From sequence record MK562502: a stretch of 64,000 nucleotides of DNA, one strand, 5' to 3'. Below are positions 62,549 through 63,621 of this stretch, one piece after another. Under the pieces are notes generated by a model, which worked only from the letters and a program-made list of their open reading frames with translations, had not been told where the DNA came from and searched no databases. The translations under genes were made by a program, and so were the position numbers. Position 1 is the first letter of the stretch. Every line of letters starts with the position of its first letter. This DNA is from Shigella phage KPS64.

Positions 62549-62555
62549 ATTAAAT

Positions 62556-62570
62556 CTTTGTAGAGAACTG
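62556..62570 (-). promoter_or_regulatory. recurrent 15-mer CTTTGTAGAGAACTG upstream of a tRNA unit
   Basis: Identical 15-mer at 63790-63804; related TTTGTAGAG at 63977-63985; each lies 7-43 nt upstream (minus-strand sense) of a tRNA 5' end. Confidence 0.3.
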
Positions 62571-62803
62571 CTAAGACGCCAAAGCAACAATGGTATCAAA
62601 TGCCTTAACAATTCTCTAAAAAGACCTATTGGCCTCTGCATAGTCTTGCTTAATCCGGTGACTAGAACCTTTGGAGAGCTTGATACTATCTCTTCTCCGT
62701 GACACCTACTAGGTGCTTTACCAGTGCCGTGTACGCCAATACACGAAGAGGAAACCTGAAACACTTGCTCGAACAAATAGTCTCAGCTTTAAATCTTATT
62801 AGG

Positions 62804-62891
62804 CGGTAGATAAAGGAGTCGAACCCTCACCGTATCTCTACAATGGCAATAGTTTTCAAGACTATTTGGCTTCCATTAGCCGCTACCTACC
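62804..62891 (-). tRNA. tRNA-Ser (anticodon TGA), type II
   Basis: 88 nt; acceptor GGTAGGT/ATCTACC; perfect anticodon stem ATAGT/ACTAT with loop CTTGAAA; about 20-nt variable arm; discriminator G; CCA not encoded. Confidence 0.55.
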
Positions 62892-62904
62892 CCTAATAAG
62901 ACTT

Positions 62905-62987
62905 TGGCATGGGACGGAGGATTCGAACCCCTTTGAGTAAGTTTTGGAGGCTTACGCACATGCCTTAGTGTCTTAACATCGTCCCAT
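62905..62987 (-). tRNA. tRNA-like with anticodon CCA (Trp by anticodon), atypical
   Basis: Perfect 7-bp acceptor stem ATGGGAC/GTCCCAT and canonical T-loop; anticodon loop CTCCAAA; about 8 extra nt between acceptor and D arm. Confidence 0.4.
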
Positions 62988-63152
62988 ACTATATTTCGAA
63001 GCTTACCCTGTTATCTCAACACTGTCAAGCTTCTTCTCAGATTATTTACATGTTCTGGAAAACATGAGATACAGACCACCTCCTTATGAGATTGACTCTT
63101 TCAAGTCAATGCGGAGACCCATAAAGGTCGTCATAGTAATCTGCTAACTAAT

Positions 63153-63271
63153 TGGCAGTCAAGGTAGGAGTCGAACCTACTTACTCTTGAGGGAGCTACC
63201 CTCGGCAACTTTCCGACTTTCGTTTATCTCTTAACGCGTATCTAAGATAACTTACTCGTGTTGTCTTGACC
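63153..63271 (-). ncRNA. 119-nt tRNA-like RNA with canonical T-arm and CCA end but non-tRNA body
   Basis: 3' end is a perfect T-arm (GTAGG-TTCGACT-CCTAC) + acceptor strand + CCA; best acceptor partner (GGTCAAG) lies 119 nt upstream; interior holds hairpins TTATCT...AGATAA and GAGGG-TAGCT-CCCTC, with no canonical D or anticodon arm. Confidence 0.3.
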
Positions 63272-63279
63272 ATTAAAAT

Positions 63280-63355
63280 TGGCACTCCGTATAGGACTCG
63301 AACCTATATATGAACTGTTTAGAAGACAGTTGCCTATCCTTTAGACTAACGGAGC
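63280..63355 (-). tRNA. tRNA-Arg (anticodon TCT)
   Basis: Perfect anticodon stem ACTGT/ACAGT with loop CTTCTAA; perfect T stem; CCA encoded. Confidence 0.6.
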
Positions 63356-63584
63356 ATTAATATTTTAAAGAGCACTCATTGCATTTAAGCCAAGCCCCTT
63401 AAGGGATGCTCTTTAGAATATTGCCCACTTTATTAATCATACCGTGGGCTAGTACGCCAAATTCTTTAACAGGGGGTTGGAAGACCCTGCTGGTGTTTAG
63501 CCTATTAAGCTACTGCCAGAAAAACATTATCGTTTGCATTTATTTTTAAGTTTTTAAAATAGACGCTACGCTAACGAAAACTAA

Positions 63585-63615
63585 GGTTATCTTAAAGTGG
63601 TCACATCTGAATGTC
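63585..63615 (-). promoter_or_regulatory. candidate sigma70-type promoter (minus strand) in the tRNA array
   Basis: Minus-strand TTGACA, 17-nt spacer, TAAGAT, just downstream (in transcript sense) of tRNA-Ile; would transcribe the 63356-63580 spacer and tRNA-Arg(TCT). Coordinates approximate. Confidence 0.35.
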
Positions 63616-63621
63616 AACAAC

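What the first reader, a model, noticed from the sequence alone, without database searches (positions are those of the whole stretch)
62549..63621. Three large non-coding gaps in the tRNA array, each with palindromes and promoter-like motifs
Gaps 62549-62803, 62988-63152 and 63356-63621 (about 165-265 nt each) contain no credible ORF. They carry a 10-bp palindrome CCCTTAAGGG inside a 9-bp-stem hairpin (about 63370-63420), a 7-bp-stem hairpin ATTGACT-CTTTCA-AGTCAAT (about 63088-63107), the recurrent 15-mer CTTTGTAGAGAACTG (62556 and 63790), and a minus-strand TTGACA-17-TAAGAT element (about 63585-63615). The array therefore looks like several transcription units interleaved with candidate small RNAs, not one simple polycistron.
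Basis: seen in the sequence. Interest (0 to 1): 0.5.

Follow-up and report, generated by a model that had tools for sequence, protein, structure and literature searches.

The report
Phage tmRNA-like RNA lacking tRNA domain
One of the three "empty" gaps in this phage's tRNA gene array holds an unannotated small RNA gene that resembles only the message-carrying half of bacterial tmRNA, the RNA that rescues stalled ribosomes; the same element occurs in hundreds of unrelated enterobacterial phages, so phages may be interfering with a host quality-control system in a way not yet described.

Summary
In detail: the three gaps are non-coding, and the hairpins, palindrome, 15-mer and promoter are present. 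The second 15-mer copy is at 63800, not 63790.

**Gap 3** is a gene. A TTGACA-17-TAAGAT promoter (63617-63589, minus strand) drives a ~225-nt RNA homologous to the tmRNA mRNA-like domain. It has:
- a resume region;
- a 10-codon tag frame (ANDNVFLAVA) followed by stops;
- a helix around the stop codons;
- two pseudoknots supported by covariation;

It has no acceptor stem, T-arm or CCA. About 130 copies from at least six phage lineages, prophages and phage-plasmids all keep a 10-residue AN(D/E)xxx(L/R)xxA tag with synonymous codon variation. Its near-invariant 5' end is complementary to tag codons 3-6 of E. coli ssrA. From this I infer that it acts on host trans-translation, possibly swapping or blocking the tag.

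**Gap 2** holds a second conserved promoter. **Gap 1** holds a near-invariant ~83-nt block plus a spacer hairpin. The 15-mer is the 3' arm of such hairpins.

Literature notes only a chimeric ARAGORN "ssrA" call in Moogle. I rate this a new variant of a known kind.

The parts
63589..63617 (-). Sigma-70-type promoter TTGACA-17-TAAGAT (-35 at 63617-63612, -10 at 63594-63589); predicted start about 63583-63581
   Evidence: Conserved in relatives, with -10 TATAGT in Moogle/Felix types. Same as P45 predicted in Felix O1 (PMC3185647). The transcription start is inferred, not mapped.
63356..63583 (-). tmRNA-like RNA gene: mRNA-like domain plus pseudoknots plus 3' stem-loop, with no tRNA-like domain. 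Its 3' limit is taken as the 5' end of tRNA-Arg(TCT) at 63355.
   Evidence: Homologs in 585 phage records and in 323 of 5426 E. coli genomes. Covariation. Rfam tmRNA models hit below threshold and only on internal model positions.
63574..63583 (-). Near-invariant 5' motif UAGUUUUCGU; reverse complement of E. coli ssrA nt 97-106 (tag codons 3-6)
   Evidence: 119 of 132 copies retrieved without using the motif have GUUUUCGU, and 128 of 132 have GUUUUCG. 10-14 contiguous pairs with ssrA in all 35 flank variants.
63502..63543 (-). Resume region AUAAAU (63543-63538), tag frame GCA AAC GAT AAT GTT TTT CTG GCA GTA GCT = ANDNVFLAVA (63537-63508), and stops TAA TAG (63507-63502)
   Evidence: All 130 copies have 10 codons plus a stop. 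Ala at codon 10 uses four codons. The stop is TAA, TAG or TGA.
63490..63519 (-). Helix enclosing the end of the tag frame and the stop codons (CUGG 63519-63516 with CCAG 63493-63490), equivalent to tmRNA helix 5
   Evidence: helix 3: 4 of 4 pairs show changes on both sides; 90% paired.
63457..63489 (-). Pseudoknot a: hairpin CAGGG/CCCUG (63489-63485 with 63474-63470), with loop CCAA (63480-63477) pairing to downstream UUGG (63460-63457)
   Evidence: helices 4 and 5: 8 of 9 pairs show compensatory changes; 99.5% and 91% paired.
63423..63456 (-). Pseudoknot b: CGUACU (63456-63451) with GGUAUG (63443-63438); GCCCAC (63449-63444) with GUGGGC (63428-63423); conserved loop AUUAAUAA
   Evidence: helices 6 and 7: 8 of 10 pairs show compensatory changes.
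63359..63422 (-). Conserved 3' stem-loop: AAUAUUCUAAAGAGCA, a 32-nt insert containing CCCUUAAGGG (63405-63396), then UGCUCUUUAAAAUAUU.
   Evidence: The same module follows the core in most of 97 distinct copies, with heavy covariation in a 15-20 bp stem. Fold.
63000..63028 (-).
   Evidence: It lies in a 99-nt stretch (62988-63086) that is 90-96% identical across Felixouna- and Moogleviruses. Function not tested.
63070..63132 (-). Long imperfect hairpin of gap 2 whose tip is ATTGACT-TGAAAG-AGTCAAT (63091-63110). Its 5' half is Mooglevirus-specific.
   Evidence: z = -2.3. Relatives carry an HNH gene next to this position.
62637..62719 (-). Near-invariant ~83-nt block of gap 1; function unknown; no Rfam match
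   Evidence: almost no substitutions across 16 distinct sequences, whereas flanks and tRNAs diverge to ~80-85%; no family found.
62551..62628 (-). ~26-bp spacer hairpin ending just before tRNA-Leu(TAG); its 3' arm is the 15-mer (62570-62556 on the RNA strand)
   Evidence: z = -6.1. Compensatory changes and a 12-nt apical insertion in Felix-type relatives.
63796..63861 (-). Lys-Met spacer hairpin GCCCCUU...GAAGAAC[31 nt]GUUCUCU...AAGGGGC containing the second 15-mer copy (63814-63800)
   Evidence: z = -3.6.
62905..62987 (-). Unannotated tRNA-Trp(CCA)-like gene with a 9-nt anticodon loop and an enlarged D region; it bounds gap 2
   Evidence: compensatory changes in anticodon and D stems; 85-100% conserved.
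63153..63271 (-). 119-nt tRNA-like element (acceptor stem, T-arm, long variable-type arm, GCCA end), found only in Moogleviruses; it bounds gap 2
   Evidence: Replaced by an HNH gene in Shigella phage Sf16.

Best explanation
The three gaps are non-coding but functional.

Gap 3 is a small RNA gene. A host-type promoter starts an RNA of about 225 nt at or next to the motif UAGUUUUCGU. The RNA is a relative of tmRNA that has kept these parts:
- the resume region;
- a translated 10-codon degradation-tag frame (ANDNVFLAVA) with stop codons held in a helix;
- two downstream pseudoknots;
- a long 3' stem-loop.

It has lost the tRNA-like domain: there is no acceptor stem, T-arm or CCA. It therefore cannot enter a stalled ribosome on its own.

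Inferred mechanism:
- Its free 5' end base-pairs with the single-stranded tag codons 3-6 of the host's own tmRNA.
- It thereby rides on host Ala-tmRNA/SmpB.
- Rescued ribosomes then read the phage tag instead of ANDENYALAA, or at the least host tagging is blocked.
- Its 3' end is probably made by RNase P cutting at tRNA-Arg, and/or by a double-strand RNase acting on the 3' stem.

Gap 2 carries a second conserved promoter for the downstream tRNAs. Gap 1 carries a near-invariant ~83-nt element of unknown role. The remaining spacer sequence, including the 15-mer, forms whole-spacer hairpins that most likely guide processing.

Shown: homology, structure, peptide-level selection, absence of a detectable tRNA-like domain, complementarity to ssrA, and distribution. 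Inferred: transcription start, processing, pairing in vivo, and the consequence for tagging.
For: Identity:
- The tag frame and resume region match tmRNA models.
- 130 copies all have 10 codons plus a stop, in 21 peptide variants.

Translation-level selection:
- Codon 10 is Ala in 43 of 43 distinct sequences, using GCT, GCC, GCG and GCA.
- Codon 11 is always a stop, as TAA, TAG or TGA.
- Codons 1-3 vary only synonymously or D/E.
- There are no indels.
- The alternative AUG frame is lost in Maynard.

Structure:
- 87.9% paired against 39-49% when the 3' partners are slid.
- 23 pairs have changes on both sides.
- 0 of 500 shuffles reach the observed values.

No tRNA-like domain:
- ARAGORN calls nothing in ~150 loci, apart from a 749-nt chimeric 'permuted' fit in two Moogle-type loci. 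It does find the E. coli control.
- RF00023 aligns only model positions 51-311 of 374, at 15 bits.
- No CCA or T-loop follows the 3' stem.

Promoter:
-.
- Enriched at a fixed distance upstream of the core: 14 of 69 contexts against 3 of 345 controls.
- Predicted independently in Felix O1 as P45 (PMC3185647).

Pairing with host tmRNA:
- The motif's complement, ACGAAAACUA, occurs once in E. coli ssrA, at nt 97-106 within the tag frame.
- All 35 flank variants give at least 10 contiguous pairs, up to 14. With random flanks P(>=10) is 0.37.
- The chance of the 9-mer complement occurring anywhere in a shuffled ssrA is 0.004.
- The motif is near-invariant under unbiased retrieval.

Distribution:
- Only phages and prophages of Enterobacterales.
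- Always unannotated, and co-oriented with tRNAs or located in the late leader.
Against: - No experiment shows that the RNA exists, where it starts, or that it binds tmRNA.
- Because both the motif and the host target are invariant, the pairing has no true covariation test.
- The motif also resembles the conserved tmRNA D-loop-analogue sequence GG(A/U)UUCGAC, and the downstream GACUUUGCG resembles E. coli GAUUUGCG. Its conservation could therefore reflect SmpB binding rather than antisense pairing.
- 10-11 bp is a short duplex.
- No precedent exists for a template supplied in trans to trans-translation without helix 2 and acceptor-stem pairing.
- About 80% of copies lack their own promoter, so in those the motif would not be at a primary 5' end.
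- Host ssrA sequences other than E. coli could not be checked here.
Confidence: 0.55

Rival explanations
1. It is a complete, self-sufficient phage tmRNA after all. Either it is a two-piece form whose acceptor piece (T-arm, acceptor strand, CCA) is encoded elsewhere and pairs in trans, or the 3' stem-loop or a neighbouring tRNA-like element serves as an unconventional chargeable domain.
For: - The tag frame is under peptide selection, which demands entry into the ribosome.
- The resume consensus AUAAAUGCAAACGA is closest to permuted/alpha-type tmRNA models.
- Moogle-type genomes hold an orphan T-arm plus GCCA fragment followed by the complementary 5' strand, about 570 nt upstream.
- Some 3' stem inserts contain a GGGUUCGAAUCCC T-arm.
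- Odd tRNA-like elements lie nearby.
Against: - Where a promoter is present, the predicted start leaves no room for a 5' acceptor strand.
- The orphan fragment's acceptor strand (ACCCUUC) has no complement next to the core.
- HK620, ZX4 and C1 have no tRNA-like piece called by ARAGORN at all.
- The 3' stem arms pair with each other, not with the 5' end (compensatory AAGGCAA/UUGCCUU in L019).
- No G3:U70 and no CCA is conserved.
- The St11Ph5 'tRNA-Ala' lacks alanine identity features.
Confidence: 0.17
2. It is purely an inhibitor or decoy of host trans-translation. It would act either as an antisense RNA that masks the host tag template, or as a sponge for SmpB or other tmRNA partners, and its own tag frame is never read.
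For: - Complementarity to ssrA tag codons.
- A known phage precedent exists for a truncated tmRNA derivative acting as an inhibitor: the mycobacteriophage DS6A TLD-only form is said to inhibit tmRNA, perhaps by titrating SmpB (PMC4131195).
- The GUUUUCG motif resembles the SmpB-side D-loop analogue.
Against: A frame that is never read should not keep all of the following across lineages: exactly 10 codons; an invariant Ala encoded by four different codons; a stop that switches between TAA, TAG and TGA; and D/E-only changes at codon 3. Some of this could still be imposed by the helix around the stop codon.
Confidence: 0.18
3. The gaps are only processing spacers and decayed remnants (dead tRNAs, a dead tmRNA fragment, scars of homing-endonuclease traffic) with no function of their own. 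The conserved stem arms merely act as homology for recombination that shuffles cassettes between phages.
For: - HNH genes are inserted at these spacers in relatives.
- The stem-loop arms are conserved in sequence on both sides of different cassettes.
- The 119-nt tRNA-like element is lineage-specific.
- The tmRNA database curators discard one-ended tmRNA pseudogenes.
Against: - Purifying selection on the tag, compensatory changes in five helices, and retention in at least six phage lineages, prophages and phage-plasmids all argue against decay.
- Gap 1's block and gap 2's promoter region are more conserved than the tRNAs.
Confidence: 0.07

Closest known systems
tmRNA (SsrA; Rfam RF00023), one-piece enterobacterial form
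   Same: A-rich resume region followed by GCA AAC GA...; a 10-residue tag beginning AND and ending in small or hydrophobic residues plus Ala; stop codons displayed in the loop of a helix (helix 5); H-type pseudoknots downstream; a 5' GUUUUCG / GACUUUGCG stretch resembling GGAUUCGAC / GAUUUGCG of E. coli tmRNA.
   Different: No acceptor stem, T-arm, G3:U70 or CCA. About 225 nt instead of 363. Two downstream pseudoknots instead of three. The pseudoknot 1 region is a weakly supported hairpin. Scores 15-35 bits against gathering thresholds of 47-50. The tag ends LAVA/LMAA rather than ALAA.
Coding piece of two-piece (circularly permuted) tmRNA (Rfam RF04321, RF01849)
   Same: An RNA that carries the tag template but not the chargeable 3' end. 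Best Rfam similarity, with resume consensus UAAAUGCAAACGAUAA. Phage examples of two-piece tmRNA exist (Melnitz, PMC9004378).
   Different: Real coding pieces begin with the 5' acceptor strand and pair with an acceptor piece encoded just upstream. Neither was found here. The 'acceptor piece' in the Rfam and ARAGORN fits is a bona fide tRNA-Ile or tRNA-Lys.
Mycobacteriophage DS6A 'TLD-only' tmRNA (PMC4131195; PMC11915505)
   Same: A phage-borne, truncated derivative of tmRNA thought to interfere with the host system rather than to rescue ribosomes by itself.
   Different: It is the mirror image: DS6A keeps the tRNA-like domain and lacks the tag frame, whereas this element keeps the tag frame and pseudoknots and lacks the tRNA-like domain.
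Complete phage-encoded tmRNAs (mycobacteriophage Bxz1 group, Bacillus phage G, marine myophages)
   Same: Phage genomes rich in tRNA genes also carry a trans-translation RNA.
   Different: Those are detected by ARAGORN and by the tmRNA Website pipeline as full genes with both domains. This family is not, apart from one chimeric call in Moogle.
Stable RNAs of the phage T4 tRNA cluster (species 1 and 2, rnaC/rnaD) - from my own knowledge, not checked here
   Same: Small non-tRNA RNAs embedded in a phage tRNA array and released by tRNA-processing enzymes.
   Different: No sequence relationship was tested. The T4 RNAs have no tag frame.
Trans-acting small RNAs with a 5'-terminal seed - from my own knowledge
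   Same: A conserved single-stranded 5' end of ~9-11 nt that is complementary to a single-stranded target in another RNA.
   Different: No terminator or U-tail. The body is a tmRNA-like fold. The proposed target is tmRNA rather than an mRNA.

Membership tests
tmRNA (SsrA) | Tag reading frame that starts at a GCN resume codon without initiation signals and ends at a stop codon | tested here: met
   130 of 130 copies: GCA/GCT, then 9 codons, then a stop.
tmRNA (SsrA) | Helix 5 presenting the end of the tag frame and the stop codons | tested here: met
   helix 3: 4 of 4 pairs with compensatory changes. The inner helix is seen by eye, but the alignment register varies.
tmRNA (SsrA) | Pseudoknots flanking the mRNA-like domain | tested here: met
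   Two downstream H-type pseudoknots are supported (helices 4-7). The upstream pseudoknot 1 equivalent is only a weakly supported hairpin (helices 1-2, 65-82% paired).
tmRNA (SsrA) | tRNA-like domain: 7-bp acceptor stem formed by the 5' and 3' ends, with G3:U70 and a 3' (N)CCA | tested here: not met
   No such stem. The AAGAGCA/UGCUCUU arms pair around their own insert, not around the RNA. No CCA follows. ARAGORN is negative.
tmRNA (SsrA) | T-arm with a T-loop adjacent to the 3' acceptor strand | tested here: not met
   Absent from the core. A T-loop motif is present in the downstream insert of only a minority of copies.
tmRNA (SsrA) | Score at or above the Rfam gathering threshold | tested here: not met
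   RF00023 15.2 bits (threshold 47); RF01849 20.8 (50); RF04321 34.7 (47), and that score is inflated by tRNA-Ile. No hits at E<=0.1 in six other loci.
tmRNA (SsrA) | Aminoacylation with alanine and binding of SmpB and EF-Tu | not testable with these tools
   Needs biochemistry.
Two-piece (permuted) tmRNA | Acceptor piece (helix 2 strand, T-arm, 3' acceptor strand, CCA) encoded upstream, and a coding piece that begins with the complementary 5' acceptor strand | tested here: not met
   ARAGORN's permuted call in Moogle uses tRNA-Lys(TTT) as its 5' domain and a distant orphan fragment as its 3' domain. The predicted start leaves 0-5 nt before GUUUUCG.
Sigma-70 promoter | -35 and -10 hexamers with 16-18 nt spacing, positioned to start the RNA, and conserved | tested here: met
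   10 of 12 match at 63617-63589. Same form at 63028-63000. Positional enrichment across families. Activity was not tested.
Intrinsic terminator separating transcription units | GC-rich hairpin followed by a U-run on the transcribed strand | tested here: not met
   No minus-strand site in 59900-64000. The 3' stem-loop is followed by AAAAUAUUAAU.
Y RNA-like YrlA (considered for the stem-loop modules with T-arm inserts) | Match to RF02553; adjacent Ro/Rsr gene | tested here: not met
   Only a 21.6-bit hit, lying on tRNA-Phe/His. No hit on the modules in six loci.

The most novel reading that the evidence does not exclude
This is a natural 'template-only' tmRNA. It is a phage RNA that lacks any tRNA-like domain, docks by a 5' seed onto the tag codons of the host's own tmRNA, and makes rescued ribosomes add a phage-chosen tag (…LAVA/…LMAA) instead of the host degron. 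This would re-route the fate of truncated proteins during infection. It would be the first trans-supplied template for trans-translation and the first phage RNA known to target tmRNA. It is present in model phages (Felix O1, HK620, Vi01-like, G7C-like) and in about 6% of complete E. coli genomes.
Probability: 0.3. Interest if true: 0.9.

Novelty: new variant of a known kind. Interest (0 to 1): 0.72.

Why it matters
Trans-translation is the main ribosome-rescue pathway in bacteria and a drug target, and several phages are known to depend on it. A widespread phage RNA that carries a selected tag frame but has no way of entering the ribosome by itself raises a sharp, testable question: how is that frame read?

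If it piggybacks on host tmRNA, that shows a new way to reprogram protein quality control. It would also yield a compact natural tool for changing the tag in vivo.

Practically, it adds an annotation to hundreds of phage, prophage and phage-plasmid genomes, including therapeutic Felix-O1-like phages. In those genomes the locus is now blank, or mislabelled as hypothetical ORFs or as a 749-nt 'permuted tmRNA'. It also shows that tRNA-array 'gaps' can hide genes.

Tried and rejected
1. **Acceptor-like terminal helix.** I first read 5' UGCUCUU and 3' AAGAGCA as closing the RNA like an acceptor stem. Rejected: each AAGAGCA arm pairs with the UGCUCUU arm downstream of it (compensatory AAGGCAA/UUGCCUU in L019; survey).
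2. **ARAGORN 'tmRNA' in Moogle as a true gene model.** Rejected: its tRNA domains are borrowed from tRNA-Lys and an orphan fragment, and the call spans three intact tRNAs.
3. **Rfam permuted-tmRNA hit (34.7 bits) as evidence for an acceptor piece.** Rejected: that part of the alignment is tRNA-Ile.
4. **The tRNA-Ala next to the element in St11Ph5 as the alanine-accepting partner.** Rejected: no G3:U70 and no CCA.
5. **A small protein from the overlapping AUG frame (MQTIMFFWQ).** Rejected: the AUG is absent in Maynard, and stop positions in the other frames are scattered.
6. **Protein-coding gap 1 (Felix O1 ORF46; a 103-aa ORF in the window).** Rejected: the frame is not conserved.
7. **Stem-loop modules as Y RNA/YrlA or another Rfam family.** No match.
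8. **RNAduplex with shuffles.** This timed out and was replaced by a contiguous-pairing scan.
9. **Genome-collection scan.** It returned only 4 true members and 2 chance matches, so it gave little power to test co-variation of the 5' motif with host ssrA.
10. **Literature.** No paper in the library contains any of the tag peptides or describes a phage antisense to tmRNA. The ARAGORN paper itself is not held.
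Full report
**What the window is.** The stretch is 98% identical to Citrobacter phage BSwM KMM2 and 90-94% identical to Moogle, Michonne, Mordin and Shigella Sf13-Sf17 phages (Ounavirinae, Mooglevirus). It holds a tRNA array on the minus strand: 20 genes between 60037 and 63942. In relatives the array continues beyond the window end.

**Checking the observation.**
- The three gaps exist as described.
- Two are bounded by standard tRNAs. The middle one is bounded by two tRNA-like elements that neither ARAGORN nor Rfam calls (62905-62987 and 63153-63271).
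- None of the gaps has a credible ORF. The only long stop-free run, in gap 1, is broken in relatives, which also differ by indels that are not multiples of three.
- The palindrome, both hairpins, the promoter-like element and the 15-mer are all present. The one correction is that the second 15-mer copy is at 63800-63814, not 63790.
- The features exceed chance on several measures. A generic promoter scan of the array does not.

**Gap 3 is a gene.**
- Searching each gap separately showed that gap 1 and the middle region are confined to Felix-O1-like phages.
- By contrast, window positions ~63422-63583 match unannotated DNA in 585 phage records from unrelated groups: P22-like HK620, Klebsiella and Escherichia siphoviruses (ZX4, C1, KFS-SE2), Schitoviridae (St11Ph5, UTK0002) and Ackermannviridae (Maynard, Gloob, selz).
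- It is also present in 323 of 5426 complete E. coli genomes. Examples are a lambdoid prophage between Q and the holin gene, and a ~109-kb phage-plasmid just upstream of a tRNA cluster.
- In every case it is co-oriented with neighbouring tRNAs or with late transcription, which corresponds to the window's minus strand.

**The tag frame.** Read on that strand, the sequence contains AUAAAU GCA AAC GAU AAU GUU UUU CUG GCA GUA GCU UAA UAG, that is ANDNVFLAVA followed by two stops. This is the layout of the enterobacterial tmRNA tag ANDENYALAA (E. coli ssrA retrieved and read). Rfam's tmRNA models hit this region below threshold, and the alignments show the match lies in the resume/tag segment.

**The frame is under selection as a peptide.**
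- About 130 copies collected from the phage database and IMG/VR all have exactly ten codons and then a stop, in 21 peptide variants of the form AN(D/E)xxx(L/R)xxA.
- Over 43 distinct nucleotide versions, codon 10 is always Ala but uses all four Ala codons.
- Codon 11 is always a stop but is TAA, TAG or TGA.
- Codons 1-3 change only synonymously or D to E.
- There are no indels, while the other two frames have scattered stops.
- The overlapping AUG frame is not conserved.

**It is a structured RNA.**
- A 38-sequence alignment gives an RNAalifold consensus with two covarying helices.
- An explicit model adds a helix around the stop codons and two H-type pseudoknots. Under this model 87.9% of cells form standard pairs, against 39-49% when partners are slid. 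23 pairs have changes on both sides, and 0 of 500 shuffles reach the observed values.
- The 5' hairpin is weaker and subfamily-specific.
- Directly after the second pseudoknot, most of 97 distinct copies have a 15-20-bp stem-loop with strongly covarying arms and a variable 30-80-nt insert.
- The window's version is 63422-63359.

**There is no tRNA-like domain.**
- The core has no acceptor stem, T-arm or CCA.
- ARAGORN finds the E. coli control. Among ~150 loci carrying the element it calls a tmRNA only in two Moogle-type loci, as a 749-nt 'permuted' gene. That call's 5' tRNA domain lies inside tRNA-Lys(TTT), and its 3' domain is an orphan T-arm/GCCA fragment ~570 nt upstream.
- RF00023 aligns only its internal positions 51-311.
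- My own first idea of a terminal acceptor-like helix was wrong: the arms pair around their own insert.

**Promoter and 5' end.**
- TTGACA-17-TAAGAT at 63617-63589 is the best promoter-like site in the array.
- The same promoter was predicted in Felix O1 as P45, TTGACA(17)TATAGT, immediately after tRNA-Ile (PMC3185647).
- Across families, 14 of 69 distinct upstream contexts have a promoter matching at least 10 of 12 positions with a perfect TTGACA. Its -10 ends exactly 7 or 12 nt before GUUUUCG. Only 3 of 345 control segments have one.
- In these phages the RNA should therefore begin at or within five nucleotides of the motif (A/G)GUUUUCGU.
- The other copies sit inside longer transcripts, such as the HK620 late leader between qut and tQ.

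**The 5' motif and the host tmRNA.**
- The motif is near-invariant even when copies are retrieved by a pattern that does not include it: 119 of 132 are exact and 128 of 132 keep GUUUUCG.
- Its reverse complement, ACGAAAACUA, occurs once in E. coli ssrA, at nt 97-106. That is tag codons 3-6. From established knowledge of tmRNA structure, this is the single-stranded part of the template, upstream of helix 5.
- All 35 distinct flank variants give at least 10 contiguous pairs there: 11 in the window and 14 in phi63_307-type copies. Random flanks reach 10 with probability 0.37. The 9-mer complement appears in a shuffled ssrA with probability 0.004.
- Variants that lose a pair at one end gain one at the other.
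- True members in a one-genome-per-species collection are all Enterobacterales, as are the phage hosts.
- This supports, but does not prove, pairing with host tmRNA. The motif also resembles the tmRNA D-loop-analogue GG(A/U)UUCGAC, so conservation for SmpB binding is a live alternative.

**Mechanism.**
- The frame is selected as a peptide yet has no initiation signal, and the RNA cannot be charged. The most economical reading is therefore that it uses the host's charged tmRNA/SmpB.
- I propose that the 5' seed tethers it to the host template, so that rescued ribosomes read the phage tag, or at the least so that host tagging is blocked.
- The tag keeps AND but changes the positions that, from established knowledge, bind SspB (…ENY) and ClpX (LAA). 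This would alter the fate of tagged proteins.
- Every step after 'complementary' is inference.

**Gaps 2 and 1.**
- Gap 2 contains a second promoter of the same form (TTGACA-17-TAAGCT, 63028-63000). It lies in a 99-nt stretch that is 90-96% conserved even where neighbouring sequence is ~80%. The gap also has two hairpins. Relatives carry HNH endonuclease genes next to this spot.
- Gap 1 contains an ~83-nt block (62719-62637) that is almost invariant across 16 distinct sequences and has no Rfam match.
- Gap 1 also has a ~26-bp hairpin with compensatory changes that ends just before tRNA-Leu(TAG).
- The 15-mer is the 3' arm of that hairpin and of the Lys-Met spacer hairpin. A related arm precedes tRNA-Val.
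- No minus-strand terminator is present. The array is best seen as nested transcripts from several promoters that are cut up by tRNA-processing enzymes and probably double-strand-specific RNases.

**What is known.**
- Two genome announcements state that ARAGORN found 'ssrA' in Moogle and Felix O1 (PMC4319497, PMC4392139). The GenBank records carry no such feature, and the call is chimeric.
- An ARAGORN survey of 18,146 phages lists Moogle only, as 'Permuted' (PMC9004378).
- The tmRNA database curators found viral ssrA only in mycobacteriophages, Bacillus phage G and DS6A. DS6A is TLD-only and inhibitory (PMC4131195, PMC11915505).
- The Felix O1 genome paper does not mention tmRNA.
- None of the tag peptides occurs in any searchable paper.

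**Verdict.** The element's presence has been glimpsed, but its real architecture, breadth and possible target have not been described in the literature I could search. I rate it a new variant of a known kind, with interest 0.72.

Noticed in passing
window 62905-62987 (minus): Unannotated tRNA-Trp(CCA)-like gene with a 9-nt anticodon loop (CCUCCAAAA), about 8 extra nucleotides before the D stem, and an encoded CCA. It has compensatory changes in the anticodon stem (GUAAG/CUUAC against AACGG/CCGUU) and D stem across relatives. It is missed by ARAGORN, Rfam and tRNAscan-based annotations. The related Kolesnikvirus has a normal tRNA-Trp.
   Followed up: partly
window 63153-63271 (minus): 119-nt tRNA-like element with acceptor stem (G1:U72), T-arm, a long variable-type arm that co-varies between KMM2 and the window, and a GCCA end, but an uninterpretable core. 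Found only in Moogleviruses. In Shigella phage Sf16 an HNH homing endonuclease gene occupies its place.
   Followed up: partly
window 62637-62719 (minus): ~83-nt block in gap 1 that is almost invariant across Felixouna- and Moogleviruses, and more conserved than the tRNAs. No ORF, no Rfam match, function unknown. Felix O1 annotates an unsupported ORF46 over it.
   Followed up: partly
L135 (Moogle) about 4169-4209, minus strand; equivalent lies just beyond window position 64000: Orphan 'permuted' tRNA-like piece: a T-arm plus 3' acceptor strand plus GCCA (GAAGGUUCGAUUCCUUCACCCUUCGCCA), followed after AACA by the complementary 5' strand GAAGGGU and a D-arm-like segment. ARAGORN used it as the 3' domain of its chimeric tmRNA.
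   Followed up: no
L004 (HK620), L005 (ZX4), L015, L017, L019: 100-600 nt either side of the tmRNA-like core: Repeated stem-loop modules CACAACAGGUAAGAGCAUU[insert]AGUGCUCUUUCCGUUGUG occur before and after the core. Some have tRNA-like T-arm inserts. Lambdoid copies have a further conserved domain (GUGGUGAAUGCGCAGGC...GCCGGCCACCAC) downstream. Together they form long non-coding 'RNA islands', for example the ~600-nt late leader of HK620. The conserved arms could also serve as recombination joints that move cassettes between phages.
   Followed up: partly
L006 (Salmonella phage Maynard) about 1580-3579: About 2 kb without annotated genes in Ackermannviridae. It contains the tmRNA-like core and several T-arm-containing fragments that are not called as tRNAs.
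   Followed up: no
L001, L002, L003, L136: first CDS after the tRNA array (outside the window): The gene following the array is annotated as DUF2828 in Michonne and Sf16, and as 'RNA-binding protein' in Felix O1. A dedicated RNA-binding protein next to an array full of odd RNAs may be connected with them.
   Followed up: no
window 61392-61619 and 61664-61876 (minus): Two small ORFs (75 and 70 aa) sit between tRNA genes inside the array. The second overlaps tRNA-Arg(ACG) and is annotated as a hypothetical protein in Michonne, Sf16 and Moogle.
   Followed up: no
window 19360-19388 (minus): Third match to the same promoter form, TTGACA-N17-TAAGAT, far from the array.
   Followed up: no
L002 1650-2102; L003 2248-2595; L136 1901-2314, 3232-3624, 4112-4597: HNH homing endonuclease genes are inserted at different inter-tRNA spacers in different relatives, always directly abutting a tRNA end. 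The spacers are hot spots for endonuclease traffic.
   Followed up: partly
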